DNA from: Kordia sp. | GTDB lineage: Bacteria; Bacteroidota; Bacteroidia; Flavobacteriales; Flavobacteriaceae | Reading direction: 5' to 3' | Assembly (NCBI RefSeq): GCF_050633145.1 | Contig: NZ_JBOEFY010000037.1 | Span: forward strand, 7,648-71,647 | DNA length: 64,000 nucleotides | In this document: positions 26,428 through 42,506 of the stretch, piece by piece | Numbering within the stretch: position 1 is the first letter of the stretch | Layout: each line of letters opens with the position of its first letter | The notes under the pieces: generated by a model | Seen by the model: only the letters and a program-made list of their open reading frames with translations | What the model was told of the DNA's origin: nothing | The model's database searches: none | Program-made: the position numbers and the translations under genes

Positions 26428-27534
26428 CTATTTCTTTTCTAATGCGGCGGCTTTCTTGTTTTCTTTTGCCTGCTCGTTTCGTTCGATTGTATGCCCTGGT
26501 CTTGACCATTTTGGTTTTTCTCCTAGCGCTTGATACTGAGAATCTTCAGCTTCTACAGTTTGTGGTTGCACCTTCTTTGTAAATGGTTTTTGAGGATTTA
26601 ATCCTAACATTTCAAACATTTTCATGTCTTCATTTACATCTGGATTTGGTGTTGTTAGTAATTTATCTCCCGCAAAAATAGAGTTTGCGCCAGCAAAGAA
26701 ACACATTGCTTGTCCTTCTCTACTCATGTTGGTTCTTCCAGCAGATAAACGTACTTGTGTTTCTGGCATTACAATTCTTGTGGTAGCTACCATACGAATC
26801 ATATCCCAAATTTCTACAGGTTTTTCATTTTCTAACGGAGTTCCGTCAACAGCTACTAATGCATTGATTGGTACAGATTCTGGTTGCGGATTTAATGTTG
26901 CCAAAGCGGCTACCATTCCTGCACGATCTTCTACAGATTCTCCCATTCCTATAATTCCACCACTACAAACCGTTACATTGGTTTTACGAACATTATCAAT
27001 CGTTTCCAAACGATCTTCATATCCACGTGTTGAGATGACTTCTTTATAGTATTCTTCCGATGAGTCTAAGTTGTGATTGTAAGCGTACAACCCTGCTTCT
27101 GCTAAACGTTGTGCTTGGTTTTCTGTCACCATTCCTAGCGTACAGCAAACTTCCATATCTAGTTTATTAATGGTACGTACCATTTCTAATACTTGATCGA
27201 ATTCTGGTCCGTCTTTTACATTTCTCCATGCTGCTCCCATACATACTCGCGAGCTTCCCGAAGCTTTGGCACGTAATGCTTGTGCTTTTACATGCGAAAC
27301 GGTCATTAAATCATTTCCTTCAATATCGGTATGGTAACGTGCTGCTTGCGGACAATACCCACAATCTTCAGGACATCCTCCCGTTTTTATAGATAGTAAT
27401 GTAGACACTTGCACGGTATTTGGATCGTGATGAACTCTGTGTACCGTTGCTGCTTCATATAGCAATTCCATCATTGGTTTGTTGTAAATCGCTATGATTT
27501 CTTCTTTAGTCCAATTGTGTCGAATGTTGTTCAT
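26428..27534 (-). CDS. bioB: Biotin synthase
   Basis: SIKTGGCPEDCGYCPQ radical SAM motif, CMGAAWR, YNHNLD, PESVPIN, RLSAGR, AGANSIF. Confidence 0.97.
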   Translation of the reverse strand: MNNIRHNWTKEEIIAIYNKPMMELLYEAATVHRVHHDPNTVQVSTLLSIKTGGCPEDCGYCPQAARYHTDIEGNDLMTVSHVKAQALRAKASGSSRVCMGAAWRNVKDGPEFDQVLEMVRTINKLDMEVCCTLGMVTENQAQRLAEAGLYAYNHNLDSSEEYYKEVISTRGYEDRLETIDNVRKTNVTVCSGGIIGMGESVEDRAGMVAALATLNPQPESVPINALVAVDGTPLENEKPVEIWDMIRMVATTRIVMPETQVRLSAGRTNMSREGQAMCFFAGANSIFAGDKLLTTPNPDVNEDMKMFEMLGLNPQKPFTKKVQPQTVEAEDSQYQALGEKPKWSRPGHTIERNEQAKENKKAAALEKK

Positions 27535-29817: not shown

Positions 29818-31434
29818 TTAGAAAATTTCTATTTTATTCAGTTCTTTTATGTAGTAAGATGGATTCAATCCTGTTTTGTTTTTAAAATGTTTTACGAAAG
29901 AATCGTCGGTTTTATATCCTATTTCAGTTGCAATACCTTTTATAGAAAATGATCTGAATTTCTTATCGTTTTTTAATCTTTTTAAAACATATTCAATTCG
30001 TAGCTCATTGATATAATCACTAAAAGTTTTTCCTTTTTCATTATTGATTATCTGTGACAAATAAGTAACATTCGTTTTTGTTTTTTTAGCGACAGAAGTC
30101 AAGTTACAATTCGATTTCAAAAAGTATTCCTGCACTTCCAGTTTGTGTAATCGCCCAATAATTGCTTTGAGAGTAGCATCATCAATTGGAATATTTTTGA
30201 TTTGTTTTTTTGATTTTTTTTGAAATGTTACTTTTTCGTCTTCTTCTAGTGTTGAAATTTTTTCTAGAAGTGTTTTAAATGTTGCTTGATTCGTTTGCTG
30301 CTTTTTAACGTATAAGATGAGCGTTAACAAAAATGCAGAAGTAGCTATTATAATTCCCCATAACATATAATTTATGGTTTGTTTATCTTCTTTTTCTTGA
30401 TTTTGCAATGCAACGATTTGGACTAAAAATTTTTCACTGTCTTTATCATGAAATTTATTCGTTGCGATATCTTTTTTGCGACTTGCCGTATTTTTAATTT
30501 CTATAACTTTATTCAACAAAATAGTAGCTTCCTTATAGTTTCCTTTTTTCGAATAACATTGTGCCAATAGATTGTGCGTGTTTATTACATTATCTTTTTC
30601 TAAATCTTCATCTTTTATATAAGCCATTGAATTCAATAAATACTGAATTGCTTCATCATATTTTTGAAGATCATAAAAGCAAAGCGCTATTGCATAATTT
30701 GTATTTACTGTTGGGAAGAAAGGACTTGCTATGTTGTTTTTTTTTATGATTGTTTCTGCTTTAAATAGACATTCAAATGCTAGTTCCCATTTTTTTTGAT
30801 GTCTATAAAATTTTCCTTTTTTTATGTATAAGTCAACAAGTCCCTCTTGAAAGTGTAGTTTTTTAGCTAGTGCAATTCCTTTTTTTATATGTGGAAACAT
30901 TGCTTCGTAATTCCCTTGCGCCATATAAGCATCACATATAGTTGTCAATACGCGCACATGGTTTTTTTTACCTTTAAAAGTAGCTTTGTCGATTAAGGTT
31001 AATGCATACACGGAAAAATCTACAGCCTTATCTTCTTTATTGATAGAAGGTAAAAAAGCTATTAGACCAGAATATGCAATTAATTCTTGATCTATGTTTT
31101 TATTCTTTTTTGCAATAGTCAAAGCATTGTAGTAAGCTTCTATAGCTTTTTCGTTTTTCCAACTGAAGTAATATGAATTCCCAAGTTTCATGTGGGCTTT
31201 AAACAGTAAGTCTTCATCTTTTATTTCTTCTGCTATCTCGATAGCTTTTACGAAATAGGATATACTGTTTACATAGTTTTCTTTTTTTTGCAATGCATTG
31301 CCTACATCTAGATATTGTTGTACCGTTTGCCCTTTAGTTTCTTTAATAGTATGCGCCTGCTGTGGGAATGAATAATGTCCTACTAAAAAGAAAATAATTC
31401 CTATGAGAATAACTGGTGCTTTTTGTGTATTCAT
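29818..31434 (-). CDS. Membrane-spanning one-component sensor: signal peptide-TPR-TM-AraC HTH
   Basis: Hydrophobic N-terminus, TPR helices, TM YMLWGIIIATSAFLLTLILYV, AraC LTSVAKKTKTNVTYLSQIIN..FSDYINELRI..IATEIGYK. Confidence 0.88.
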   Translation of the reverse strand: MNTQKAPVILIGIIFFLVGHYSFPQQAHTIKETKGQTVQQYLDVGNALQKKENYVNSISYFVKAIEIAEEIKDEDLLFKAHMKLGNSYYFSWKNEKAIEAYYNALTIAKKNKNIDQELIAYSGLIAFLPSINKEDKAVDFSVYALTLIDKATFKGKKNHVRVLTTICDAYMAQGNYEAMFPHIKKGIALAKKLHFQEGLVDLYIKKGKFYRHQKKWELAFECLFKAETIIKKNNIASPFFPTVNTNYAIALCFYDLQKYDEAIQYLLNSMAYIKDEDLEKDNVINTHNLLAQCYSKKGNYKEATILLNKVIEIKNTASRKKDIATNKFHDKDSEKFLVQIVALQNQEKEDKQTINYMLWGIIIATSAFLLTLILYVKKQQTNQATFKTLLEKISTLEEDEKVTFQKKSKKQIKNIPIDDATLKAIIGRLHKLEVQEYFLKSNCNLTSVAKKTKTNVTYLSQIINNEKGKTFSDYINELRIEYVLKRLKNDKKFRSFSIKGIATEIGYKTDDSFVKHFKNKTGLNPSYYIKELNKIEIF

Positions 31435-31610
31435 ATATTAAATGGAAAAAGAAAACTTCATATTTAGTACAAAGTAACTATATTAATTTTAGAACCATTA
31501 ATCGTATAGAATTTCGATTTGATTTTAGCAGCTCCTTGTTTCCTAAAAAATATACTTCAACAAAGCAAAAAATTTCTGGTATACACCATTCCATTCATTA
31601 TTTTTCACAT

Positions 31611-31646
31611 AAAAAAAGAGTTGAAGCAAACACTCCAACTCTTTTT
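31611..31646 (-). terminator. Terminator of peptide P4
   Basis: aaaagagttg...caactctttt with T-run on the minus strand. Confidence 0.7.
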
Positions 31647-31685
31647 CAACAGATAAAAGTCGTAACTCAATATCTGTTTATTTAA

Positions 31686-31850
31686 TTACCCACAAGCTAT
31701 TGCACCTGTTGCGCAAAAAATATCTGTTGGTGGCTCACCATTTCTACATTCAGTAACCGTATTAAATATACTTCCTCCTGTAATTTTATTAGCATGAAAA
31801 TTAGAGATTACTTCTTTGTTGATCTGTAACTTTTTTAATGACTTTTTCAT
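31686..31850 (-). CDS. Double-glycine-leader peptide P4 (54 aa), not in ORF track
   Basis: Manual translation MKKSLKKLQINKEVISNFHANKITGG|SIFNTVTECRNGEPPTDIFCATGAIACG*. Confidence 0.8.
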   Translation of the reverse strand: MKKSLKKLQINKEVISNFHANKITGGSIFNTVTECRNGEPPTDIFCATGAIACG

Positions 31851-31873
31851 CGTTTTATGTTTTAAGAATGTTG

Positions 31874-31903
31874 CCTACTCTAATAAAGGTTTTCGGCTTC
31901 CCC
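31874..31903 (-). promoter_or_regulatory. Conserved 30-nt element upstream of P4
   Basis: cctactctaataaaggttttcggcttcccc, 23 nt from the start codon; second copy of 29373..29402. Confidence 0.65.
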
Positions 31904-31978
31904 GTATTTGAAATTGAAAACAATTGTCCTTTGATTTCGAATACGAATGTCAGTTATTAAAGCATCAAAAAAAAGGAA

Positions 31979-32005
31979 CATATCACGACTTTAAACAAAA
32001 TAGGG
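31979..32005 (-). promoter_or_regulatory. Conserved 27-nt distal element upstream of P4
   Basis: catatcacgactttaaacaaaataggg; second copy of 29477..29503. Confidence 0.6.
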
Positions 32006-32305
32006 CAAGTCATTAATTTAGAGTTTCAAGAATGGTAAAAGCGATCATTCTTAATTAAAAATAAGGTCTTTTTAAAGAAGTTAAAAATAGATTTTTACAT
32101 ACAAAAAATACAGTTAAATGACTGAAAAACAAATATTTACACCTAACAACATAAAAACAATTGCTATTTAAATAATTGCTTTAATTTAAAAAAAATAGGG
32201 TTTATCAGCACACACAAATTTAAATGATTTAGGGTTTGCTTTTTTTACTTTATATGGTACTTTTTAGATAAGAAATGAAATAGCTTTAACGAGATTAAAA
32301 AACAT

Positions 32306-32330
32306 AAAAAAATCCGCTCTAAGGCGGATT
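32306..32330 (-). terminator. Terminator after flotillin gene
   Basis: aatccgc-tctaag-gcggatt with T-run on the minus strand. Confidence 0.75.
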
Positions 32331-32350
32331 CTTCTATATTTTTAGTTTGA

Positions 32351-33808
32351 TTATTTTTCTTCTGAATCATCTGAAGATTCTACTTCAGTTGCAGGAATTT
32401 CTTTTGTTACATCTTTACCTTTTAAATATTCTGGTAATTCCATTCCTGCCATGTTGAACATTTCCTGTAATGGCGGAACTGCTTTGTACATTCCCGAAAT
32501 AAAGTTGGACGTAGATGTTTTACCATCTTTTCCTCCACCATTTTCCCAAACGGTAACTTTATCAATCTTGATGTTTTTAATAGCTTCTGCTTGTGTTTTT
32601 ACCAATTCAGGTAATTTATCAGCAACTAATAACAATACTGCATCTTTTGAGTTGTTTCCAGCTGCTTTTACAATTTGCTCCAAACCAGCCGCTTGTTTCG
32701 TTAATACTTCAAATTGACCTTGTGCTTCTGCTTGTGCTTTAAATAAGATTGCATCAGCTTCACCTTTTGCTTTTCTACGAATACGTTCTGCTTCTGCTTC
32801 TGCGTCAATTTCTACTTTACGTTTGTCAATTTCGGCAGGTACAATAATATCGGCTTGTTGCGATGAACGCTCTCTTTCTGCTCTGGCAACTTCCGCTTCA
32901 CGCTCTGCTGCGTACGATTCTTCTAAGGCTTTTGCTGCTTGTACTTTTTCAGATGCAATTGCCACACGTTCTGCTTCTGCTTCACGCTGTCTACGTAAAG
33001 AATCAGAGTTTGCTACTTCAATTTTCGCGGTATTTTCTCCATCAACTGCTTTTGCATTTGCGGCTGCTACTTGTGTACGTTCATCCTGTAAAGCGTTTGC
33101 CTCACCAATAGAACCATCTCTGTTTTTCTCTGCAACCGATTTACGAGCTGCGTTAATTGCGTGTGCTGCAGCTTCTTTACCAAGTGCTTCAATATATCCC
33201 GATTCGTCAACAATATCGGTAATGTTTACGTTGATCAGTTTTAAACCTACTTTCTTTAATTCTGATTCAACACTTTGAGAAATGTTTGTTAAGAATTTAT
33301 CTCTATCAGAGTTAATTTCTTCGATATCCATTGAAGCTACTACCAAACGTAACTGACCAAAGATAATTTCTTGTGCTAGTTCTTGAATTTCATGTTGTCC
33401 TAATCCAAGTAAACGTTCTGCTGCATTTTGCATTACTCCTGGTTCTGTTGAGATACCAATGGTAAATCGAGAAGGTACATTTACACGAATATTTTGCTTA
33501 CTTAAAGCGTTGACTAGGTTTACTTCTATTGAAATTGGTGTTAAGTCTAAGAATTCGTAATCTTGTATAACTGGCAATATAAATGCTGCACCACCATGAA
33601 TACATTTGGCAGATTCTCCGCCTCCAACTTTTCCGTATACTACTAAGATCCTGTCTGATGGACAACGTTTGTATCTACGAATAAATACAGTGATTAATAA
33701 AAAGATAAAGAGTCCTACAGCGACTAATGTTATTAGTCCAGACATCTCTCCAATAGAACCCCCACTAATATTATTAGGATCCTGCAATAAGAGAAGCGCT
33801 TTTGTCAT
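32351..33808 (-). CDS. Flotillin (SPFH/Band 7) protein
   Basis: RYKRCPSDRILVVYG, GGAAFILPV, AAERLL, Ala/Glu-rich coiled coil. Confidence 0.92.
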   Translation of the reverse strand: MTKALLLLQDPNNISGGSIGEMSGLITLVAVGLFIFLLITVFIRRYKRCPSDRILVVYGKVGGGESAKCIHGGAAFILPVIQDYEFLDLTPISIEVNLVNALSKQNIRVNVPSRFTIGISTEPGVMQNAAERLLGLGQHEIQELAQEIIFGQLRLVVASMDIEEINSDRDKFLTNISQSVESELKKVGLKLINVNITDIVDESGYIEALGKEAAAHAINAARKSVAEKNRDGSIGEANALQDERTQVAAANAKAVDGENTAKIEVANSDSLRRQREAEAERVAIASEKVQAAKALEESYAAEREAEVARAERERSSQQADIIVPAEIDKRKVEIDAEAEAERIRRKAKGEADAILFKAQAEAQGQFEVLTKQAAGLEQIVKAAGNNSKDAVLLLVADKLPELVKTQAEAIKNIKIDKVTVWENGGGKDGKTSTSNFISGMYKAVPPLQEMFNMAGMELPEYLKGKDVTKEIPATEVESSDDSEEK

Positions 33809-34391
33809 AATTTTTTTTGTTTATTGGTTGAACGATTAATATTCCGGTTCCTGTAATTTCCGTTACTTCTACTACAGTTCCTGTTTTGAGTGTTTCTTCA
33901 CTATCTGCAAGTGCATCCAATTCGCGCAAAGCGCCTTGAATATTGACATGAACTTTTCCAATTTTGGAACGATTGGCACCTATGGTTAAGTATACTTCTC
34001 CCACGTTTCCAATAGCGTTTTCAAGCTTGAGTGTTCCACTACTTACTAGTTTGTTAATGTAGTAAATAAGTGTTGCCATCACAACCATCATTGCGAGTCC
34101 AGCTAGTGATGATATTAAAATAGTCACACCTTTTCCGTAACCTGCATTGATAGATGAAATTCCTGCCCAACTAAATATGGTAAAGAAAGCCACTAAATTT
34201 TTGAACGTAAAGAATTGAAACCCAATTCCTGTATCGCTTTCTATATCGGAATCTACGTCGCCATCAGCGCCATCTGCATCACCTATTAAGAATGTAGTGA
34301 TAAGTACAAATACAAAAATCGTTGATGATATTGCAGCGATGACCCAATACGACTTTTCAAAAGTTGTTAATGCTGAAAACCAATCTTCCAT
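33774..34391 (-). CDS. NfeD-like partner of flotillin
   Basis: TM helices then OB-fold GNVGEVYLTIGA..GKVHV..ELDA; directly upstream of flotillin. Confidence 0.85.
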   Translation of the reverse strand: MEDWFSALTTFEKSYWVIAAISSTIFVFVLITTFLIGDADGADGDVDSDIESDTGIGFQFFTFKNLVAFFTIFSWAGISSINAGYGKGVTILISSLAGLAMMVVMATLIYYINKLVSSGTLKLENAIGNVGEVYLTIGANRSKIGKVHVNIQGALRELDALADSEETLKTGTVVEVTEITGTGILIVQPINKKNYDKSASLIAGS

Positions 34392-34434
34392 AGCATACGG
34401 TTTTAATGTGTTATTTTATTTATTTGTTGAATTT

Positions 34435-35601
34435 TTAGTCTTTGGTTAGCAATACTGAAACAGCGTTTCCTCCAAATCCGACCGCATTGACTAAAATTTT
34501 GTTTAGTTGTTTCGGTATTTTTCCTTTTCCAAGATACGGAATTGATATGAATTGTTGTTGCTGTATCATGAGAATTGCTAATTCTACACTTAACATTCCT
34601 GAAGCTCCAAAAGTGTGACCTATTTTCCACTTATTCGTAGTCAGACTTGGCATTTTGTTACAAAATATTTTTTTGATTGCTTGAAATTCTGCTAAATCAC
34701 CTTTAATTGTTCCTGGTGCATGTAGCACAATTGCATCTACTTCTTCGGTTGAATGTCCTTGTAATGCCATACGCATCGATTTTTCAAAACAGATACCTTC
34801 TGCCGAAATGGATGTGTTGTGTTTTAAAATTTCTGTAGCATAACCAATTCCTCTAATTTTTGCCAATGCATTTGGTTTTTCACCTTTTTCCATACAGATT
34901 GAAGCAGCTCCTTCACCCAAAATCATAGTGTTTCGGTTTTTTTCTAAGTCTAACGACAAACAAGGAAAATTTGCTTCTTTTTTTGCATATATATGCAAAG
35001 CTTGCATTTGCGCAATGGTAAATGGTGTTAGTGGCGCTTCACTTCCTCCTACCAAAAATTTCTCTGTCATTCCCGACTGCAGCCAAGCAATTCCGTTTAA
35101 CAACGCATGTAATGCTGTAGAACAAGTAATGGAATGTGATATTTGCGGTCCTGTAGTTTGCAAATCGTGTGCAACCCAAGACGAAATATTTCCTAAAGTA
35201 GTTGTTGGTGAACTTAGCGTTTCTGCATATTTATTTTCTAAGAAATCTTGATGATATTTTTCAAAAAGTGATGTAGCACCTCTAGACGAACCTATGTTTA
35301 TTCCGAAGTTGTTTTCATCATTCCAAGCAGCATTTTTAATAGCAATTCGTGAAGCTACTATTGCGTACAACACACTATTATCAAGGTTTTTATATTTTGA
35401 ATTGGAATTTTTTAATGCTTCAACCCCCGCTTTTGCCGTTGTGGAAAGTCGCGCTGTATTCACATATTCATTTTGAATTGTTTCAGTCTGAAAACAATGA
35501 AAATTAGTTGTATAATGTTCCCAAATTTCGGCTTGTGTACTTCCCAATGGAGATACCGAACCCAAGCCAGTTATTGAAATACAGTCATGCATCATAATCA
35601 T
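34435..35601 (-). CDS. Beta-ketoacyl synthase (FabF/FabB-like)
   Basis: GLGSVSPLG, SITCSTALHA (Cys), VLHAPGT and KIGHTFGASG (His-His), NAVGFGGNA. Confidence 0.85.
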   Translation of the reverse strand: MIMMHDCISITGLGSVSPLGSTQAEIWEHYTTNFHCFQTETIQNEYVNTARLSTTAKAGVEALKNSNSKYKNLDNSVLYAIVASRIAIKNAAWNDENNFGINIGSSRGATSLFEKYHQDFLENKYAETLSSPTTTLGNISSWVAHDLQTTGPQISHSITCSTALHALLNGIAWLQSGMTEKFLVGGSEAPLTPFTIAQMQALHIYAKKEANFPCLSLDLEKNRNTMILGEGAASICMEKGEKPNALAKIRGIGYATEILKHNTSISAEGICFEKSMRMALQGHSTEEVDAIVLHAPGTIKGDLAEFQAIKKIFCNKMPSLTTNKWKIGHTFGASGMLSVELAILMIQQQQFISIPYLGKGKIPKQLNKILVNAVGFGGNAVSVLLTKD

Positions 35602-35749
35602 ATAAATTGAGACTGCTAATATCGTAAGAAATGTGATGATTTGCTAACATTTATAGACTGTAAGTTGGAGAAATTATGATTGTTTTTACACCTATAAAAA
35701 GTTAGATATTATATCTTGTATTTTTTTATGTGAAATTAAATTACCCTTA

Positions 35750-37450
35750 ATGAATATTTCTAAAATTTCTTTGTTACTTATTTTACTTCCTTTTTGGGTT
35801 TTGGCTAATAATCAAGATTCCCTTTCTATTTTTAAAGAGAAAAACCTTTCGCAGCAACATACATATATTAAGGAACGATTAAATTCCGTAAAAAATATAG
35901 ATACTTATATTACTGCTTTTTCAGATAAAGCAAGAGGACAAAAAGACACACTTTATATTGCCAAATCGTATTATTTTAAATATCGCACCTACAGAAAAGC
36001 AAAAGCATATTCAGAAGCACATTCGGCAATTGACAAAGCCATTTTACTTGCAAAGAGCAGCAAGAAAGATTCATTATTAGGTTCTTTTTTTCATGCCAAA
36101 GGCGCTACTTTTTATATGCAGTCTAATTTTAAGGCTGCATTGGATTACTATTTAAAAGCGTATGACATTATGCGTACTAAAAGCTCAATTAGTAAATTAT
36201 TGACACTAAAATTTAATATTGCAGTAATGAAACTAAGAGTAGGAAAAACGCAAGAAGCATCTCTTCAATTTTATAAGATTATCCACTCGTACGATTCGCT
36301 ACTCAGTACAAAACCCAATTCATATGCTTTGAAAAAAAATTTTATTATAATGCTCAATAATACAGCGAAAGCCCGTACTGACTTAGCTATGTACGAGCAC
36401 GCAATTGAGTTGTATTCAAGAAGTCTTTTATTGAACGAAACTATTAATTATCTTCCTGCGAAGTGTATTGCTATTGGCGGGAAAGGAAATGTATATACCG
36501 CAGAAAAAAAATATGAGAAAGCTATTGAAAAACTAAACGAAGCATTAGCAATTTCAACTAAAGACAAAGAATCAGACTTAGTTACTCCTTATTTATTACT
36601 CGATAAAGGAAAATGCCTATTTGGATTAAAAAAATATAAAGAAGCCTTAGAAAATTTCGTAGAAATAGATCGTATCATACAAACTAAAAAACTGAATTTC
36701 CCAAACTTAGACGAAGCATATCAATTTCTTGGAAAAACGTATGTTCAATTGGGAAATCATGAAAAAGCGACGGAGGTCTATGACCAGTATATTAAACGAA
36801 AAAAGCTAAATGATGAAAAACGCTTTGAGTTGTATCAAACTATTTTTGAAGGATATGATTTGAAGAATGTAGAATATCGTGCCGAGAAAGCTGCAAAAGA
36901 GTCCAATTTATTTAAAAGCTACTTTACACAAGCAATTCTAGCAATTATACTTTTAATTATTTCTGCAATTGCCTTCTTTATGTATTATAGAAATAAGCAA
37001 AAACAAAAGTTTACAAAGTTTCATGCACTTATTAAAGAGTTAAAAACGACAGAGGTCAAGGATGTAGAAACCGTTCCTACTGGTTATGTATTATCGGACG
37101 AAAAAGCTTCTAAAATATTGAACAACTTGGAAGTTTTGGAAACGAAGTTATTTTTTCTTGATAAGAAATACAACCTTTCCACCTTGGCAAAAAAGTGTAA
37201 TACTAATTCGAGTTATTTATCTCAAGTGATTAATAAATATAAAGAGAAGACTTTTTCAGAATATATGACTGATATGCGTATTACTTATGTTTTAAATGCG
37301 TTAAAAAATGATAAAAAATTACGCTCGTACACCATTCAATCTATTGCAGAAGAAATTGGTTTTAAGAAATCAGAATCGTTTGCAAAGGCTTTTAAAAAAC
37401 GAACAGGATTTAATCCTTCTTATTATATTAAAAATCTTGACAAGCTTTAG
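35750..37450 (+). CDS. Membrane-spanning one-component sensor: signal peptide-TPR-TM-AraC HTH
   Basis: MNISKISLLLILLPFWVLA signal, TPR repeats, TM AILAIILLIISAIAFFMYY, AraC LSTLAKKCNTNSSYLSQVIN..IAEEIGFK. Confidence 0.88.
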   Translation: MNISKISLLLILLPFWVLANNQDSLSIFKEKNLSQQHTYIKERLNSVKNIDTYITAFSDKARGQKDTLYIAKSYYFKYRTYRKAKAYSEAHSAIDKAILLAKSSKKDSLLGSFFHAKGATFYMQSNFKAALDYYLKAYDIMRTKSSISKLLTLKFNIAVMKLRVGKTQEASLQFYKIIHSYDSLLSTKPNSYALKKNFIIMLNNTAKARTDLAMYEHAIELYSRSLLLNETINYLPAKCIAIGGKGNVYTAEKKYEKAIEKLNEALAISTKDKESDLVTPYLLLDKGKCLFGLKKYKEALENFVEIDRIIQTKKLNFPNLDEAYQFLGKTYVQLGNHEKATEVYDQYIKRKKLNDEKRFELYQTIFEGYDLKNVEYRAEKAAKESNLFKSYFTQAILAIILLIISAIAFFMYYRNKQKQKFTKFHALIKELKTTEVKDVETVPTGYVLSDEKASKILNNLEVLETKLFFLDKKYNLSTLAKKCNTNSSYLSQVINKYKEKTFSEYMTDMRITYVLNALKNDKKLRSYTIQSIAEEIGFKKSESFAKAFKKRTGFNPSYYIKNLDKL

Positions 37451-37459
37451 TTTATTAAT

Positions 37460-37477
37460 CTATTTTCATAAAAATCG
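37460..37477. promoter_or_regulatory. 18-bp palindromic box copy 1 (CGATTTTYATRAAAATCG)
   Basis: ctattttcataaaaatcg, 17/18 match, 70 nt before P5 start. Confidence 0.65.
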
Positions 37478-37547
37478 ATTATAAACACTGGGATTCGGTT
37501 TTAGAATTAACGTACTTTCTACTATCATTAATCTTAAAACTAATAGT

Positions 37548-37739
37548 ATGAAAAGTAGATTTCACAAAAAATTAAACCTTAAAAAAGTTACCATTTCTAA
37601 ATACATTATTCTTGGCGGTTCAGCAACTCCTGATAGTGAATCGGTTCCTACACAATCTAGCGCATATCTTGAACCAACAGAATTACCTGTACTGGATGAG
37701 AATTTGACAATTAGTGGCCATCAACAAACGTGCATGTAA
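37548..37739 (+). CDS. Double-glycine-leader peptide P5 (63 aa, acidic core)
   Basis: MKSRFHKKLNLKKVTISKYIILGG|...SSAYLEPTE...TCM. Confidence 0.8.
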   Translation: MKSRFHKKLNLKKVTISKYIILGGSATPDSESVPTQSSAYLEPTELPVLDENLTISGHQQTCM

Positions 37740-37767
37740 ACACATATATCTTGGTTAAAATCTAGTA

Positions 37768-37785
37768 CGATTTTTATAAAAATCG
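37768..37785. promoter_or_regulatory. 18-bp palindromic box copy 2
   Basis: cgatttttataaaaatcg, 18/18 match, 73 nt before P6 start. Confidence 0.7.
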
Positions 37786-37858
37786 ATTATAAGTATTGGG
37801 AATGTTTAGAGAAATTGAGTTTCTTCACATTATAATAATTAACTCTAAAACTTGTATT

Positions 37859-38041
37859 ATGAAAACTAAGTTTCACAAAAAATTATCCCTCAAAAAAATT
37901 ACAATCTCAACATATAAAATCTATGGAGGTAATGAAGAAGATACCATTAAATCTAGCGCATATCTAGAGCCAACAGAAACTCCAACTCCAATAGATGAAA
38001 GTCCTAGATTGATTAGTGCTAATAATGAAACCTGTGTTTAA
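37859..38041 (+). CDS. Double-glycine-leader peptide P6 (60 aa, paralogue of P5)
   Basis: MKTKFHKKLSLKKITISTYKIYGG|...SSAYLEPTE...TCV; start moved from 37796. Confidence 0.8.
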   Translation: MKTKFHKKLSLKKITISTYKIYGGNEEDTIKSSAYLEPTETPTPIDESPRLISANNETCV

Positions 38042-38060
38042 TACGCTTCGTTAAAAAAAT

Positions 38061-38094
38061 AAAAGCTCTTGAGTTATTCTCAAGAGCTTTTTTT
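38061..38094. terminator. Bidirectional terminator between convergent peptides
   Basis: aaaagctcttgag-ttatt-ctcaagagctttt. Confidence 0.85.
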
Positions 38095-38098
38095 GTTG

Positions 38099-38293
38099 TT
38101 ATACACACGGATGTACTGACAAGCAAGGGTTTGGAATATCTGTATTTCCAGTAAAAGAATTTTCACAAAGTCTGTGTTCTTTAGTTGGCTCAACTGGACA
38201 TAAAATCACTGAGATAATTCCTCCTTTTGCACTTTCTAAATTAGAGATCAATTTCTTGTTTAATTTTAAACTTTTTAAACTTCTTTTCTTCAT
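38099..38293 (-). CDS. Double-glycine-leader peptide P7 (64 aa, 4-Cys core)
   Basis: MKKRSLKSLKLNKKLISNLESAKGG|IISVILCPVEPTKEHRLCENSFTGNTDIPNPCLSVHPCV; start moved from 38365. Confidence 0.8.
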   Translation of the reverse strand: MKKRSLKSLKLNKKLISNLESAKGGIISVILCPVEPTKEHRLCENSFTGNTDIPNPCLSVHPCV

Positions 38294-38368
38294 AATGAAT
38301 ATAATTTTAAGGTTTATGATTTGACTCAAAACTAGATCACATTTTGTGCTAAAACAAAGCAACATTTA

Positions 38369-38408
38369 CGATTTTCATGAAAATCTAATACGTTTTTCAT
38401 AAAAATAG
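38369..38408. promoter_or_regulatory. 18-bp palindromic box copies 3 and 4
   Basis: cgattttcatgaaaatct (38369..38386, 17/18) and cgtttttcataaaaatag (38391..38408, 16/18); first copy 75 nt before P7 start. Confidence 0.65.
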
Positions 38409-38487
38409 ACAGTGTAGAAAATAAACTTATTTAACTGAAATAAAACAAGTTAGGTAATTAAATTTATTGATATAGGTTTTAAGTTTT

Positions 38488-39054
38488 TTACTGAAAGTTT
38501 GTGAGTTGCTTACGAAGATTTTTTCGAACATTTTGCAGGTTAATTCTATTAAAATACATGTCTACATCTTGCATTCCGTCCATTGCAAGTTGAATCCATT
38601 CTACTTTTACTTCTCCTTCACTGAGTAGATATTCTTCAATGATGATTTCTTTTTGTATTCCGATGATTAAAAGTATTGCTGCAATGACAATTCCCGTGCG
38701 ATCTTTTCCAGATAAACAATGTACAAGTACTGGAAATTGTATACCTGGATTCTCAAAAGTTTTTATGATTTGATTGAGCCAAATTTTCACTTCTTTTTGA
38801 CTTGTATTGTATTTTTCAATTTTGTTAGACATGGGAAAGTGAAAATATTCCACATCAAAAGCAGCTTCATCTGCTCCATTTCTCAGGTTTATGATAGATT
38901 TTGCTTGTCCGATTTCATCGAGTGTTTTTACATAATCAATACTTCCGCCTCTTAAAAGTTGGTTTTCGTGTAGTTTTTTTTCGCCAAGTATTAGGTTTAT
39001 ATATCCGCCAACATCTCTAAAATTTACGCAACCATCTGTATAATCTAATCCCAT
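38488..39054 (-). CDS. Protein tyrosine/serine phosphatase (Y_phosphatase3-like)
   Basis: NFRDVGG, INLR, HCLSGKDRTG (CX5R loop). Confidence 0.88.
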   Translation of the reverse strand: MGLDYTDGCVNFRDVGGYINLILGEKKLHENQLLRGGSIDYVKTLDEIGQAKSIINLRNGADEAAFDVEYFHFPMSNKIEKYNTSQKEVKIWLNQIIKTFENPGIQFPVLVHCLSGKDRTGIVIAAILLIIGIQKEIIIEEYLLSEGEVKVEWIQLAMDGMQDVDMYFNRINLQNVRKNLRKQLTNFQ

Positions 39055-39077: not shown

Positions 39078-40343
39078 CTATAGTGTATCAAGCGTTTCGC
39101 GAATGGCCTGATATATTTGTTGCAATTGCACATCTGTAGTAATGTACGGCGCTAAAATGTAAATGGTATTTCCTAACGGGCGCAAACAAACACCTTTGCT
39201 CATAAACGAATTGAACAGTTTGTCACGTAAGTTTCCATAACGTTCCATTTCTATGTTTAGATCGAGTGCAAAAATTTGTCCTTGTTGTCGTGTAGACACC
39301 ACTTTTGGATGTTTTTTTATTTCTTGACCAAATGTATTGTGTGAAGCTTCAATGCGTTTTAAATTCGCCTGCATTTCGTTTGATTGCAGGAGTTCAATTC
39401 CCGCAATAGCGGCACTACACGCCACAGGATTTCCCGAATAGGTATGTCCGTGGAAGAAGCCTTTTTTCATATCATCTGCATAAAAAGCATCGTATATTTT
39501 TTGACTACAACTCGTAATTGCCATTGGCACCATTCCCGCAGATAACGCTTTGGATAAACAGATAATGTCTGGCTTGGTTTCTATAAATTCTGATGCAAAG
39601 TTTTTTCCCGTTTTTCCAAAACCAGTCATAATTTCGTCGGCAATGGTAACAACGTTGTGCTCTTGTGCAATTTTTAAGATCTCGTTGATATGCTCTGCTT
39701 TATGCATTTGCATTGCGGCAGCACCTTGCACCAAAGGTTCGTACACAAAAGCAGCTACTTTATGTTCTGTAATTAATTTGGTGAATAATGCTTTTACTGT
39801 TTCCAAATTTTCAGCATTTGGTACAGGAATTCGAGCTACATCAATAAAGAATTCTTCAAACGGTCCGTTATAGACTGAAAGTCCAGAAACTGACATTGCG
39901 CCAAAGGTATCGCCATGAAAACCATTTTCTAAAGCAATAATTCGTCCTCTTTTTTCATCTTGATTGAAATGATATTGCAGTGCCATTTTTATAGCTACAT
40001 CAATAGCAGTAGAACCATTGTCTGAAAAGAATAGCTTTTCTTGATTGCTAGGTAATATTTCAATGAGTTTTTCTGAAAGTTCTACAGCTGGTTTGTGCGT
40101 GAATCCTGTGAAAACCACATGATCTAGACTTTGCATTTGCGCATATACTTTGTCGATAATGTATGGATTGCAATGTCCGTATACACAAGTATACCAAGAC
40201 GCTATTCCGTCTATATATTCATTGCCGTTTTCATCATATAAAACAGCGTCTTTTGCCTTAGTAATCGCAATATGATTTGGATGCGATTTGTGCTGCGTTA
40301 GTGGATGCCAAAGGTGTTTTTTATCTCTTTCTTGTAAGCTCAT
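39078..40343 (-). CDS. bioA: Adenosylmethionine-8-amino-7-oxononanoate aminotransferase
   Basis: LWHPLTQH, SDNGST, FHGDTFGAMSVS, EPLVQGA, IADEIMTGFG, LSKAL, FHGHTYSGNP. Confidence 0.96.
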   Translation of the reverse strand: MSLQERDKKHLWHPLTQHKSHPNHIAITKAKDAVLYDENGNEYIDGIASWYTCVYGHCNPYIIDKVYAQMQSLDHVVFTGFTHKPAVELSEKLIEILPSNQEKLFFSDNGSTAIDVAIKMALQYHFNQDEKRGRIIALENGFHGDTFGAMSVSGLSVYNGPFEEFFIDVARIPVPNAENLETVKALFTKLITEHKVAAFVYEPLVQGAAAMQMHKAEHINEILKIAQEHNVVTIADEIMTGFGKTGKNFASEFIETKPDIICLSKALSAGMVPMAITSCSQKIYDAFYADDMKKGFFHGHTYSGNPVACSAAIAGIELLQSNEMQANLKRIEASHNTFGQEIKKHPKVVSTRQQGQIFALDLNIEMERYGNLRDKLFNSFMSKGVCLRPLGNTIYILAPYITTDVQLQQIYQAIRETLDTL

Positions 40344-40954
40344 TATAGTTTTTCTTTGAATGTTTCCGCGTACTCGCGAATTACATTTTGATCAAAATAC
40401 GGCTCTTCATCAATACGTCCAAGTACAGGAACATTGGTCATTTTTTTGATGATTGTTTCTGTTGTTACGTGTTCCTTCCCACTAAAAATAATAGACACAT
40501 TGAAGCCTTTTTCTTTTAGCAAATTTACCGTTAGTAAGGTATGATTGATACTTCCCAAATAATGACGCGAAACTACCACAACATGATATTCAGGTTTTAT
40601 GACATCTAAAATTGTGTTTTCGTCATTCAACGGCACTAAAATTCCGCCTGCACCTTCAATAACCAAATGATTATCGGTCATTGGTTCTTTAATTTTTGCT
40701 AAATCGATCGTGATATTGTCAATTTCTGCGGAAGCGTGCGGACTCATTGGCGTATTGAGTGCATAACTATTTGGGTGAATTTTTGTTTTTGTGTTTGAAA
40801 TGTATCTTTCTATTTTGTGACTGTCGGAATTGTCTAAATCACCAGCTTGTATTGGTTTCCAATAATCGGCTTGTAAGGCTTCCACTATAATTGCGGAAGC
40901 AACAGTTTTTCCAACTTCAGTTGAGATTCCTGTGATAAATATTTTCTTTTTCAT
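40343..40954 (-). CDS. bioD: Dethiobiotin synthase
   Basis: FITGISTEVGKT, YWKPIQAG, VIEGAGG, LGSINHTLLT. Confidence 0.96.
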   Translation of the reverse strand: MKKKIFITGISTEVGKTVASAIIVEALQADYWKPIQAGDLDNSDSHKIERYISNTKTKIHPNSYALNTPMSPHASAEIDNITIDLAKIKEPMTDNHLVIEGAGGILVPLNDENTILDVIKPEYHVVVVSRHYLGSINHTLLTVNLLKEKGFNVSIIFSGKEHVTTETIIKKMTNVPVLGRIDEEPYFDQNVIREYAETFKEKL

Positions 40955-41343
40955 TGACCTTTTTCGGGTTTAAAAGTTTCTCCGCACATATTACACAAAT
41001 ATATTTTTGGCTCAAAAAACGGGAATAACATGTATAGAAATTTTTTTTTCGGTGGCGCAATTAGCACTTTGTTTTCCTTACAATTAGGACACACGATTCT
41101 ATTTCGCTTTCTGTCTACTTCGTATTCGCGCAATTCATTGTATAACGCAATGGCAGCTTCTTTGTCTTGCAAATGTACTTCTAGTTTTACACCACCAATT
41201 GCATTGCTCACCAACGGATCTACATCAACGGTATATTGATCTCTTAGAAATACTTCGATGCCTTCCGACATGAATTTTCCTTGCATTACGCGCGCTTCTG
41301 CCGTGTATTCAAAAGTAGTTACTGTATAGAACTCGTTTTTCAT
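40951..41343 (-). CDS. DUF2007-like protein with C-terminal Zn ribbon
   Basis: SEGIEVFL.D, SNAIGGVKL, CPNC...CNMC. Confidence 0.75.
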   Translation of the reverse strand: MKNEFYTVTTFEYTAEARVMQGKFMSEGIEVFLRDQYTVDVDPLVSNAIGGVKLEVHLQDKEAAIALYNELREYEVDRKRNRIVCPNCKENKVLIAPPKKKFLYMLFPFFEPKIYLCNMCGETFKPEKGQ

Positions 41344-42506
41344 TTTTGTAGTGTTTGTAAAGTGTTTATAACTGCTTTTATTTCTGTTTCTGTATTGTAT
41401 GAATGTAGACAGAAACGCAAGCGTTCTTTTCCTTTCGGAACTGTTGGTGATACTATTGGTTTTACGTCAAACCCTTTTTCTTGTACTATTTTTGCTGTGC
41501 TTTTTACTATATCATTTCCTGAAAGAATACAACAGTGAATCGCTGCATTTCCTGGAATGAAGTTCAAATTTCTTGTCGCTTCTTGAAAGCTTTGTATGTT
41601 TTTGTGTAACCGTTTTATAGCTGTTGTTTGCGAGAGTTCATCATACGCTATTTTGATCGTAGCTACTGCATGTGGCGATAATCCTGTGGTATAGACGAGA
41701 CTTCTAGCAAAATTGACTAAGTAATTTTTGAGCGTTTCACTTCCCAAAATAACGGCTCCGTGACAACCAAGGGCTTTTCCAAACGTGTAAATTCTGGCAA
41801 AGACTTCATTTTCTAGGTTTAGTTCCTGTAAAAGTCCTTTTCCATATTCGCCAAAAACACCTAAAGCATGTGCTTCATCTACAATGAGATAAACATCTTG
41901 CTCATTGCAAAGTTTCACTAACGCTTTTAAATCAGGTGAATCACCATCCATAGAAAAAACAGATTCTGTCACCACATAAATTTCTTGATCTGTTGTATTT
42001 GATTGTTTTATTTTTTGAATTTTCTGTTGTAAATCAGACAACTCGTTATGCTTGAATTTGTATGATTTTGCATTACTCATTCCAATTCCATCACGAATTG
42101 AAGCATGAATAAATTCATCATACATTATAATATCTCCACGCTGCGGCACAGATGAAAAGAAACCAATATTGGCATCATATCCTGAGTTGAATAACAAAGC
42201 AGCTTCACTGTTGTGAAATGTACAAAGTTGTGCTTCTACTTCTTGATATAGTTTGTGATTTCCCGAAAGCAATCGCGAACCTGTAGCGCCATTTTGTTGT
42301 ATGTTTCTATCTAGTAAAAACTGATGTGTTTTTTTAAAAATGGTTTCAGAAGTAGCAAATCCCAAATAATCATTCGAAGAAAAATCAACATTCCCTTTGG
42401 TTATAGGAAGCGTTCGCAGTGCATTATTTTGCACACGACCTTGAAGTTTTGCTTGTATTTTTTTGGGTGTTTTCACGTGTTTATATGTATTCTTTTTATT
42501 GATCAC
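41340..42506 (-). CDS. bioF: 8-amino-7-oxononanoate synthase
   Basis: DFSSNDYLG, GATGSRLLSGN, FNSGYDAN, HASIRDG, ESVFSMDGD, VDEAHA, TFGKALG. Confidence 0.95.
   Translation of the reverse strand: MINKKNTYKHVKTPKKIQAKLQGRVQNNALRTLPITKGNVDFSSNDYLGFATSETIFKKTHQFLLDRNIQQNGATGSRLLSGNHKLYQEVEAQLCTFHNSEAALLFNSGYDANIGFFSSVPQRGDIIMYDEFIHASIRDGIGMSNAKSYKFKHNELSDLQQKIQKIKQSNTTDQEIYVVTESVFSMDGDSPDLKALVKLCNEQDVYLIVDEAHALGVFGEYGKGLLQELNLENEVFARIYTFGKALGCHGAVILGSETLKNYLVNFARSLVYTTGLSPHAVATIKIAYDELSQTTAIKRLHKNIQSFQEATRNLNFIPGNAAIHCCILSGNDIVKSTAKIVQEKGFDVKPIVSPTVPKGKERLRFCLHSYNTETEIKAVINTLQTLQK

What the first reader, a model, noticed from the sequence alone, without database searches (positions are those of the whole stretch)
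35750..38408. Module 2: four copies of an 18-bp palindrome mark every peptide promoter next to a second TPR-TM-AraC sensor
Seen: CGATTTTYATRAAAATCG at 37460, 37768, 38369 and 38391 (16-18/18 matches), located 70, 73 and 75 nt before the starts of P5, P6 and the oppositely oriented P7. The P5 and P6 copies extend into a shared 32-mer (28/32). This box differs from the module 1 motifs. Inference: each sensor has its own operator and cognate peptide set, i.e. orthogonal signalling channels.
Basis: partly seen in the sequence, partly recalled or inferred. Interest (0 to 1): 0.68.

Follow-up and report, generated by a model that had tools for sequence, protein, structure and literature searches.

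The report
Private DNA box of membrane TPR-AraC regulator
Four copies of an 18-bp DNA palindrome sit at a fixed distance in front of three small exported-peptide genes beside a membrane-spanning regulator in a marine Kordia bacterium. They are most likely the sites where that regulator switches on its own peptide set, one of about 43 such units in the genome.

Summary
Four copies of CGATTTTYATRAAAATCG (0-2 mismatches) lie at 37460, 37768, 38369 and 38391, against 0.42 expected by chance. No other 0-1-mismatch copy exists in the 6.26-Mb genome.

The box is under selection:
- It is kept next to every ortholog of the adjacent TPR-TM-AraC gene, in 10 Kordia genomes and in two metagenome orthologs at 52% and 45% identity.
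- No cluster of boxes occurs in the 8 Kordia genomes that lack the ortholog.
- Box columns are 83-92% conserved, against 64-68% for the surrounding spacer.

At the P7-type promoter two boxes 22 bp apart sit directly upstream of a canonical Bacteroidota promoter (TTTG, 20 nt, TAGTTTTG). Their predicted centres are -55.5 and -77.5, an activator position.

The genome holds 43 such regulators. Of these, 28 have a GG-leader peptide gene 98-217 nt downstream (27 within 98-155 nt). Clades of their DNA-binding domains match palindrome types.

I conclude that the box is the private activator site of the adjacent regulator (about 0.7). Operator specificity is supported. That the peptides are the ligands, as in true signalling, is untested.

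This scan already reported the same family in this genome (Module 1) and in other genomes. I found no paper describing it.

The parts
35750..37450 (+). S2, the regulator: signal peptide/anchor (1-19), about 8-repeat TPR superhelix (25-365), one transmembrane helix (about 392-413), basic juxtamembrane stretch, disordered linker (431-448), AraC/XylS DNA-binding domain (450-561)
   Evidence: Pfam TPR_12 and HTH_18 above cut-off. Hydropathy and charge. AlphaFold2 model, pLDDT 84. Foldseek best matches are the TPR domains of LGN/Pins, KLC1 and OGT, several solved with bound partner peptides.
37460..37477 (.). Box 1 (CTATTTTCATAAAAATCG): 9 nt after the S2 stop codon and 70 nt before the P5 ATG. The CT left half is conserved in 9 of 11 species.
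37478..37493 (+). Type-A promoter extension (ATTATAAnnnnTGGGA) shared by P5 and P6 and conserved in orthologous type-A promoters. It contains a possible -33 TTG.
   Evidence: D4, 28/32; consensus
37548..37739 (+). P5, a type-A GG-leader peptide (63 aa). Conserved core: SSA[FY]xEPTE ... S-x5-C-x at the C-terminus.
37768..37785 (.). Box 2 (perfect palindrome CGATTTTTATAAAAATCG), 73 nt before the P6 ATG. A degenerate half-box (AAAATCT) lies 22 bp upstream, at about 37746-37763.
   Evidence: (D3)
37786..37801 (+). Type-A promoter extension of P6
37859..38041 (+). P6, a type-A GG-leader peptide (60 aa) and tandem duplicate of P5
   Evidence: (D1, 74% over 96 nt)
38061..38091 (.). Bidirectional intrinsic terminator shared by the convergent genes P6 and P7. 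It is the only terminator found in 35500-38600.
   Evidence: (-18.3 kcal/mol, z -4.3)
38099..38293 (-). P7, a type-B GG-leader peptide (64 aa, 4 Cys in the core, C-terminus IPNPCLSVxPCV conserved in some species)
38327..38334 (-). -7 box TAGTTTTG of the P7 promoter (Bacteroidota sigma-A consensus TAnnTTTG). Predicted transcription start near 38322, giving a 5'UTR of about 29 nt.
   Evidence: 98% column identity. Position rule -12..-5 from PMC9723704.
38355..38358 (-). -33 element TTTG of the P7 promoter, 20 nt upstream of the -7 box
   Evidence: 92% column identity
38369..38386 (.). Box 3, the proximal box of P7: 75 nt before the ATG, predicted span -47..-64, centre -55.5
38391..38408 (.). Box 4, the distal box of P7: 22 bp from box 3, predicted centre -77.5. 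It is the most degenerate copy. In several other species the equivalent box also serves a divergent type-A peptide gene that G000 lacks here.

Best explanation
The 18-bp palindrome is the private DNA-binding (activator) site of the cytoplasmic AraC-type domain of S2, the membrane-spanning TPR regulator encoded just upstream at 35750-37450.

S2 sits in the inner membrane, with its TPR superhelix outside the cytoplasm and its DNA-binding domain inside. On a signal received by the TPR domain, it binds the box immediately upstream of the -33 element. There is one box at each type-A promoter (P5, P6) and two boxes 22 bp apart at the type-B promoter (P7). Binding recruits or stabilises RNA polymerase at these otherwise weak promoters.

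The regulon is just the three monocistronic GG-leader peptide genes. After removal of the GG leader, the products are presumably exported by one of the genome's two C39-peptidase ABC transporters, and possibly modified in trans by the single LanB plus LanC.

Shown by sequence:
- the boxes, their conservation, and their fixed geometry relative to a canonical promoter
- their co-occurrence with S2 orthologs
- the covariation of DNA-binding domain and box across paralogs

Inferred:
- physical binding by S2 and the sign of regulation (activation)
- the membrane topology
- the nature of the signal; S2's own type-A peptide is the leading candidate, at about 0.35-0.4
For: 1. Non-random and private. 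Four copies against 0.42 expected. No other 0-1-mismatch copy in 6.26 Mb. The 2-mismatch sites are mostly inside long ORFs, and none precedes a peptide gene or lies near a regulator.

2. Phylogenetic footprint. In 10 Kordia genomes with an S2 ortholog (64-74% identity), the box follows the regulator's stop by 6-27 nt in nine of them and precedes the peptide genes. Box columns are 83-92% identical, against 64-68% for other spacer columns. Orthologs at 52% and 45% identity still keep the box, the roughly 70-nt spacing and the tandem pair.

3. Phyletic co-occurrence. Clustered boxes occur only in the 10 ortholog-bearing genomes and always beside the ortholog. The 8 genomes without it have 0-3 scattered hits, no more than the control gives.

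4. Geometry. At the P7-type promoter the boxes are followed by about 10 nt, then TTTG, 20 nt and TAGTTTTG. With the -7 box at -12..-5 (PMC9723704), the box centres fall at -55.5 and -77.5. Genome-wide, where a perfect TAnnTTTG exists, the palindrome centre lies 42.5-44.5 nt (10 of 15; 7 at exactly 43) or 53-53.5 nt (4 of 15) upstream of it. The two classes are one helical turn apart.

5. Weak core promoters. Only 8.6% of GG-peptide genes have a consensus -7 box, against 20.5% of control genes (p = 8e-7).

6. The regulator varies with the box. Paralog pairs whose DNA-binding domains are at least 65% identical have box similarity 7.56/10, against 5.18 for other pairs (permutation p about 1e-4). 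Their TPR domains are only 30-54% identical. Clades of the domain tree equal box types.

7. Within the S2 orthogroup the DNA-binding domain is the most conserved part: 86% against 63% for the TPR domain. This matches an invariant box.

8. The canonical unit is regulator, then a spacer of about 100-155 nt containing a palindrome, then a peptide gene on the same strand. It holds for 28 of 43 paralogs.
Against: - No binding, expression or transcription-start data exist.
- AraC/XylS sites are normally asymmetric, with two different helix-turn-helix motifs per monomer. A perfect internal dyad in each 18-bp unit is unusual, and it is unclear whether one monomer or a dimer occupies a box.
- The type-A promoters (P5, P6) lack a clear -7 box, and their TTG is about 3 nt closer than in P7. 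Their box position (about -51.5) is therefore only a guess.
- The global Mantel correlation between domain identity and box similarity is weak (r = 0.11, p = 0.07). The signal comes from close pairs, which also share ancestry.
- In one genome (G008) the S2 ortholog carries 4 stop codons and a frameshift, yet its boxes and peptide gene are intact. This could be recent decay, or it could mean another protein uses the box.
Confidence: 0.7

Rival explanations
1. S2 binds the box, and the whole unit is an autoinducing (quorum-sensing-like) loop. The exported type-A peptide (P5/P6) is the ligand of the extracytoplasmic TPR domain, and it switches on itself and the Cys-rich type-B peptide P7. This is the first reader's 'signalling channel' and is a refinement of the best explanation rather than a contradiction.
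For: - The type-A peptide is the constant partner of S2 down to 45% identity, and it keeps a conserved core (SSA[FY]xEPTE ... S-x5-C-x), unlike the hypervariable cores elsewhere.
- There is no terminator between S2 and P5 or P6. Read-through could therefore give the basal peptide level that an autoinduction loop needs.
- The regulon consists of peptide genes only.
- The closest structural matches of the TPR domain are LGN/Pins and KLC1 TPR domains solved with bound partner peptides.
Against: - There is no evidence of binding.
- TPR folds bind many kinds of partner.
- A peptide of about 35-40 residues exported across both membranes would have to re-enter the periplasm to reach the sensor.
- 6 of the 43 paralogs have no peptide gene within 3 kb.
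- S2 itself has no box upstream, so there is no receptor autoinduction.
Confidence: 0.37
2. S2 binds the box but senses something other than its own peptides, for example envelope stress, a competitor's or host alga's molecule, or a partner protein. The peptides are then only an output, such as bacteriocin-like weapons.
For: - Among orthologs the TPR domain evolves faster than the DNA-binding domain (63% against 86%). This is compatible with adaptation to external ligands.
- 255 of 257 peptide cores contain Cys (median 4), as in lanthipeptide or bacteriocin libraries.
- The leaders resemble the class I lanthipeptide leader model NF038153.
Against: It does not explain why a conserved-core type-A peptide stays attached to the regulator at a fixed spacer of about 100 nt in 28 of 43 units.
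Confidence: 0.3
3. The box is bound by a protein other than S2, such as another local or global regulator, or the box acts as a repressor operator.
For: - Perfect dyads are typical of dimeric regulators with a single helix-turn-helix motif rather than of AraC proteins.
- The G008 ortholog of S2 is broken while its boxes persist.
Against: - A global regulator would have sites elsewhere, and none exist.
- Box presence tracks the S2 ortholog, 10 of 10 against 0 of 8.
- Box type tracks the clade of the AraC domain across 43 paralogs.
- No other DNA-binding gene is conserved in the locus.
- The boxes lie upstream of the -33 element and do not overlap the core promoter.
Confidence: 0.1
4. The copies are only leftovers of promoter duplication, or RNA or terminator hairpins without a DNA-binding role.
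For: P5 and P6 are tandem duplicates, 74% identical over 96 nt.
Against: - P7 is unrelated in sequence yet carries two boxes.
- The boxes are conserved far above the flanking spacer across 12 loci.
- Their hairpins are weak, -3 to -5 kcal/mol against -18 for the real terminator.
- They lie upstream of the predicted transcription start.
Confidence: 0.03

Closest known systems
Activator sites of AraC/XylS-family regulators (AraC I1-I2, XylS at Pm, RhaS/RhaR, MelR, MarA/SoxS marbox)
   Same: - The domain is AraC-type (HTH_18). The closest solved sequences include SoxS.
- Site units are 17-20 bp, repeated with a period of about 21-22 bp.
- The sites lie directly upstream of the -35/-33 element of weak promoters.
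   Different: - Each unit is an almost perfect dyad with an AT-rich centre and specific outer arms, whereas classical sites are asymmetric.
- The regulator is membrane-anchored with an extracytoplasmic TPR sensor.
- The promoters are of the Bacteroidota -33/-7 type.
Transmembrane one-component transcription regulators (ToxR, TcpP, CadC; census in PMC10269533)
   Same: A single polypeptide has a sensor domain outside and a DNA-binding domain inside the cytoplasm. It would regulate while tethered to the membrane. Bacteroidota are reported as enriched in such proteins.
   Different: - ToxR and CadC have an N-terminal OmpR-type winged helix and a C-terminal periplasmic domain. S2 has the reverse order and an AraC domain.
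- The census text contains no occurrence of 'AraC', 'TPR' or 'tetratricopeptide'.
Bacteroidota hybrid two-component systems (HTCS)
   Same: A periplasmic sensor, membrane passage and a C-terminal AraC-type output in one protein. Families are large and locus-linked, each controlling neighbouring genes.
   Different: S2 has no histidine-kinase or receiver domains. Its sensor is TPR, and its targets are peptide genes rather than polysaccharide-utilisation loci.
Peptide autoinduction circuits (nisin NisK/NisR; ComC/ComDE and BlpC/BlpHR; RRNPP receptors such as PlcR, Rgg, Rap)
   Same: GG-leader or lanthipeptide-like exported peptides encoded next to their regulator. Regulator and box pairs are specific. 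RRNPP receptors also use TPR repeats to bind peptides.
   Different: - No two-component kinase and response regulator.
- RRNPP receptors are cytoplasmic and need peptide import. Here the TPR domain is predicted to lie outside the cytoplasm.
- Ligand identity is untested.
Prochlorosin-type lanthipeptide libraries (one enzyme, many dispersed precursors)
   Same: About 257 precursors share a leader and have hypervariable Cys-rich cores, against one LanB and two LanC genes.
   Different: The machinery is class I (LanB/LanC) rather than ProcM, and modification is not shown. Here many precursor groups also carry their own dedicated regulator.

Membership tests
AraC/XylS family transcription regulators | C-terminal domain of about 100 aa with two helix-turn-helix motifs (Pfam HTH_18 / HTH_AraC) | tested here: met
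   HTH_18 scores 48.2 bits (cut-off 33.6) over residues 479-561. HTH_AraC scores 30.0 bits (cut-off 26.6). The model shows seven helices in 450-561.
AraC/XylS family transcription regulators | Binding sites of 17-20 bp next to or overlapping the -35 region, often repeated with a period of about 21 bp | tested here: met
   Units are 18 bp, spaced 22 bp centre to centre, and end about 10 nt upstream of the -33 TTTG. Physical binding was not tested.
AraC/XylS family transcription regulators | Asymmetric site recognised by two non-identical helix-turn-helix motifs of one monomer | tested here: not met
   Each box is a near-perfect dyad. The same holds for most paralog boxes.
Transmembrane transcription regulators (ToxR/CadC type) | One polypeptide with a transmembrane segment between the sensor and the DNA-binding domain | tested here: met
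   There are two hydrophobic segments, 1-19 and about 392-413. A basic stretch follows the second, on the DNA-binding-domain side. The model shows a long helix 371-433. This is prediction only.
Transmembrane transcription regulators (ToxR/CadC type) | N-terminal OmpR-type winged-helix DNA-binding domain | tested here: not met
   The DNA-binding domain is C-terminal and AraC-type.
Bacteroidota hybrid two-component systems | HisKA/HATPase and receiver domains between the sensor and the AraC output | tested here: not met
   No such Pfam hits in S2.
RRNPP peptide receptors | Cytoplasmic TPR receptor (N-terminal helix-turn-helix in most members) that binds an imported peptide | tested here: not met
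   The TPR domain is preceded by a signal peptide and followed by a transmembrane helix, so it is predicted to be extracytoplasmic. The helix-turn-helix domain is C-terminal and AraC-type.
Class I lanthipeptide precursors (NCBIfam NF038153 leader) | Leader matches the model above its cut-off; LanB/LanC are present; the core has Ser/Thr and Cys | tested here: inconclusive
   - P5 and P6 score 15.3 and 15.9 bits, below the cut-off of 22, and P7 gives no hit.
- One Module 1 peptide scores 29.9.
- LanB and LanC exist only in trans, on other contigs.
- A conserved Ser-x5-Cys at the type-A C-terminus would allow one ring.
Double-glycine leader peptides exported by C39-peptidase ABC transporters | N-terminal leader ending in GG; a C39-domain ABC transporter in the genome | tested here: met
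   The leaders of P5, P6 and P7 end in GG. Two full-length C39-ABC genes lie on contigs C49 and C58. Cleavage was not tested.

The most novel reading that the evidence does not exclude
Kordia, and other Flavobacteriaceae with this family, run dozens of parallel peptide signalling channels. Each consists of an exported GG-leader (possibly lanthionine-ringed) peptide, a membrane one-component TPR-AraC receptor that binds it outside the cytoplasm, and a private palindromic operator. Module 2 would be one complete, insulated channel: type-A peptide as signal, type-B peptide as output. This would be receptor-specific peptide quorum sensing in Bacteroidota, a phylum where none is established.
Probability: 0.3. 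Interest if true: 0.85.

Novelty: new variant of a known kind. Interest (0 to 1): 0.6.

Why it matters
If S2 binds this box, Module 2 is a compact and testable regulatory unit: one membrane receptor, one 18-bp operator and three peptide promoters.

The genome also offers about 43 natural variants with different outer arms. That amounts to a ready-made specificity code for AraC-type domains and a set of potentially orthogonal switches for Bacteroidota genetics.

It would also explain how a library of about 250 dispersed Cys-rich peptides is controlled in a genus known for algicidal activity whose secondary metabolites are essentially unknown (PMC10734526).

If the peptides prove to be the ligands, this would be peptide-based cell-cell signalling in a phylum where none is established.

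Tried and rejected
- A strict search for even palindromes (9+9, at least 8/9 matched, at least 2 GC pairs) found them at only 20 of 257 peptide promoters, against 3% of controls. The criterion was too narrow because many boxes have odd centres or gaps. I replaced it with a scored search.
- The global Mantel test of DNA-binding-domain identity against box similarity was weak (r = 0.11, p = 0.07). Only the thresholded test on close pairs is significant.
- I considered a sigma-54 reading of the conserved TGGGA, by eye. I dropped it because the GG-to-downstream spacing differs by 2 nt between P5 and P6 and there is no TTGC.
- A terminator or hairpin reading of the boxes is rejected.
- Extra-locus 2-mismatch sites as regulon members are rejected.
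- The sigma-70 promoter scan is uninformative: 17 hits against 15.7 expected, and it is the wrong promoter type for this phylum.
- A gapped -33/-7 pattern search failed on syntax. I did it in Python instead.
- Literature searches found no description of TPR-TM-AraC regulators with peptide genes.
Full report
**1. Observation**

The pattern CGATTTTYATRAAAATCG occurs four times in the window, at 37460 (1 mismatch), 37768 (0), 38369 (1) and 38391 (2). Shuffles give 0.42 matches on average, and none of 100 shuffles reached four.

The gaps to the start codons of P5 (37548), P6 (37859) and the minus-strand P7 (38293) are 70, 73 and 75 nt. The P5 and P6 copies extend into a shared 32-mer, 28 of 32 identical (D4).

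In the whole assembly (6.26 Mb, 33% GC, 122 contigs; the window is contig C37:7648-71647), these are the only copies with 0-1 mismatch. Seven further sites have 2 mismatches, against 3 for the reversed control. Most lie inside long ORFs, none precedes a peptide gene and none is near a regulator.

**2. The genes**

S2 (35750-37450) has TPR repeats and an AraC-type HTH_18 domain. It has an N-terminal hydrophobic signal or anchor and one transmembrane segment at about 392-413, followed by a basic stretch.

An AlphaFold2 model (pLDDT 84) shows four parts:
- a TPR superhelix at 25-365
- one long helix at 371-433 that contains the membrane segment
- a disordered linker at 431-448
- a seven-helix AraC domain at 450-561

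The best structural matches of the TPR part are the TPR domains of LGN/Pins, KLC1 and OGT, several of them solved with bound partner peptides. By sequence, the DNA-binding domain is only distantly related to solved AraC domains such as SoxS. The predicted topology is therefore TPR outside and DNA-binding domain inside the cytoplasm.

P5, P6 and P7 are small ORFs with a basic leader ending in GG and with Cys-containing cores. Their leaders weakly resemble the class I lanthipeptide leader model NF038153. They score below its cut-off, although a Module 1 peptide passes it.

The only intrinsic terminator in 35500-38600 is the bidirectional hairpin at 38061-38091, between the convergent genes P6 and P7. 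Nothing terminates transcription between S2, P5 and P6. The boxes themselves fold only weakly, at -3 to -5 kcal/mol.

**3. Comparative evidence for the box**

The organism is a Kordia (Flavobacteriaceae).

Orthologs of S2 at 64-74% identity occur in 10 of 18 other genomes of the genus. In nine of them a box follows the regulator's stop codon by 6-27 nt, and in all ten boxes precede GG-leader peptide genes. In the tenth (L013) the first box lies 355 nt after the stop.

Alignments of the upstream regions were made for 13 type-A and 10 type-B promoters. Box columns are 83-92% identical, against 64-68% for the remaining spacer columns.

Two metagenome orthologs, at 52% and 45% identity, still carry the box about 70 nt before a type-A peptide gene. 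Their boxes read CACGATTTTCATGAAAATCGTG and CGATTTTCTTGAAAGTCG. The 45% ortholog also keeps the tandem pair 22 bp apart before a divergent peptide gene.

A pattern scan of the genus finds clustered boxes only in the ten ortholog-bearing genomes, always beside the ortholog. The eight genomes without it have 0-3 scattered hits, no more than the control gives.

**4. Geometry**

In all ten type-B (P7-like) promoters, two boxes 22 bp apart are followed by about 10 nt, a conserved TTTG, about 20 nt and TAGTTTTG. The last element is the Bacteroidota sigma-A -7 consensus TAnnTTTG. In Flavobacterium psychrophilum this consensus occupies -12 to -5 (PMC9723704).

For P7 this predicts:
- a -7 box at 38334-38327
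- a -33 element at 38358-38355
- a transcription start near 38322
- box centres at -55.5 and -77.5

Among GG-peptide genes in this genome that have a perfect -7 box, the palindrome centre lies 42.5-44.5 nt (10 of 15; 7 at exactly 43) or 53-53.5 nt (4 of 15) upstream of it. These two classes are one helical turn apart, and P7 falls in the main class.

Consensus -7 boxes are under-represented at GG-peptide genes: 8.6% against 20.5% of control genes, p = 8e-7. Sites just upstream of -33, in helical phase, at weak promoters are what an activator would need. This is inference, since no transcript data could be obtained.

The type-A promoters (P5, P6) have a single box, then the conserved extension ATTATAAnnnnTGGGA, and only a degenerate -7 candidate. 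Their exact geometry is uncertain.

**5. Is the adjacent regulator the binder?**

The genome encodes 43 full-length TPR-TM-AraC paralogs. Of these, 37 have GG-leader peptide genes within 3 kb. In total 73 peptide genes lie that close, against 13 expected. For 28 of the 43, a peptide gene starts 98-217 nt after the regulator on the same strand, and 27 of these start within 98-155 nt.

Many of these spacers contain their own 18-22-bp palindrome centred about 72-93 nt before the ATG. These palindromes usually have an AT-rich centre and always have locus-specific outer arms.

Paralog pairs whose DNA-binding domains are at least 65% identical have much more similar boxes than other pairs: 7.56 against 5.18 of 10, permutation p about 1e-4. 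Their TPR domains are only 30-54% identical. This argues against simple retention of duplicated DNA.

On a tree of the DNA-binding domains, clades coincide with box types:
- AATTC-N3-GAATT
- TGAT/TGAC..ATCA/GTCA
- TCG..CGA
- CCCTATTTT..AAAATAGGG

The S2 domain has no paralog above 59% identity in this genome, which fits its private box. Within the S2 orthogroup the DNA-binding domain is the most conserved region, 86% against 63% for the TPR domain, which fits the invariant box.

A global regulator would not show this pattern. No other DNA-binding gene is conserved in the locus.

**6. What remains open**

- **Binding mode.** AraC-type sites are normally asymmetric, but each box here is a dyad. 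I cannot say whether one monomer or a symmetric dimer occupies a box.
- **The ligand.** The type-A peptide is the constant companion of S2 and keeps a conserved core (SSA[FY]xEPTE, then Ser-x5-Cys-x at the C-terminus) down to the most distant orthologs. This makes it the best ligand candidate, but nothing shows binding.
- **Insulation.** S1 and S2 belong to the same DNA-binding-domain clade (56% identity). Aligned from the centre, their half-sites differ mainly at position -8 (T against G) and in the outermost bases. The sensor-proximal box carries CT instead of CG in its left half in 9 of 11 species. Some cross-talk is therefore conceivable.
- **A broken ortholog.** In one genome (G008) the S2 ortholog carries four stop codons and a frameshift, while its boxes and peptide gene are intact. 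This is probably recent decay, but it is a caveat.

**7. Comparison with what is known**

The unit works like an AraC/XylS activator site, read by a transmembrane one-component regulator. It is not a hybrid two-component system, because it has no kinase or receiver domain. It is not a ToxR/CadC-type protein, because the domain order and the DNA-binding fold are different. It is not an RRNPP receptor, because the TPR domain is extracytoplasmic.

Searches of the held literature found no description of TPR-TM-AraC regulators paired with peptide genes. The published census of transmembrane regulators does not contain the terms AraC, TPR or tetratricopeptide.

This scan itself has already reported the family: for Module 1 of this same genome and for several other genomes. 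My counts and geometry agree with those notes and were obtained independently here.

**8. Verdict**

The finding is real. The best explanation is a private activator site of the adjacent membrane TPR-AraC regulator, controlling three peptide genes (confidence about 0.7). 'Own operator' is supported. 'Orthogonal signalling channel' is a plausible reading, not yet tested (about 0.3-0.4). I class it as a new variant built from known parts, with interest 0.6.

Noticed in passing
whole genome G000 (for example C58:5332-16247): About 257 GG-leader ORFs, against 1 in a reversed-genome control. 255 have Cys in the core (median 4). The genome has only one LanB (C58:13014-14984), two LanC (C58:15126-16247, C17:3145-4224) and two full C39-ABC exporters (C49, C58). 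This is a prochlorosin-like layout of one machinery and many dispersed precursors. The C58 cluster also holds a TPR-AraC regulator and three peptide genes.
   Followed up: partly
window 37460-37477 and orthologous loci L006-L015: The sensor-proximal box is asymmetric (CTATTTT... instead of CGATTTT...) in 9 of 11 species. The T at position -8 is the base found in the Module 1 half-site (CCCTATTTT). It could be a deliberately weaker site or a hybrid site.
   Followed up: partly
locus L015 (genome G008, C1:116707-118251): The S2 ortholog is a pseudogene: three GAA-to-TAA-type stops, one Tyr-to-stop change and a frameshift near residue 520. Its boxes and type-A peptide gene are intact. Directly upstream lies a 40%-identical sister regulator whose own box reads CGTTTTTCATGAAAACAG.
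   Followed up: partly
window 29818-37450; locus L017: The gene order S1, peptide gene, Band-7/flotillin gene, gene for a membrane protein of unknown function (33774-34391), beta-ketoacyl synthase, S2 is conserved. The part from Band-7 to S2 recurs beside the 52% ortholog (L017). In several genomes of the genus a paralog lies about 4.3 kb upstream of the S2 ortholog, as S1 does here. The two modules are therefore probably old neighbours within a biotin-gene region (bioB at 26428, bioA/D/F at 39078-42506).
   Followed up: no
about 12-25 nt upstream of most GG-peptide start codons (for example window 37528-37541, 37840-37853): A conserved A-rich 5'UTR motif (TTAAYTYTAAAAY) is shared by many peptide genes across the genome. 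It may be a translation-initiation element in this phylum, which lacks Shine-Dalgarno sequences.
   Followed up: no
window 38391-38408: In several other Kordia species the box equivalent to box 4 doubles as the proximal box of a divergent type-A peptide gene. G000 has no such gene here, and the 3' end of the phosphatase gene lies at 38488. Box 4 may therefore be partly a relic.
   Followed up: partly
family-level genome sample: Full-length relatives of S2 (E <= 1e-25) were found in 26 of 121 sampled Flavobacteriaceae genera, usually 1-5 per genome. One other genus (G118) has at least 11, some in tandem arrays. Large expansions therefore seem restricted to a few genera.
   Followed up: no
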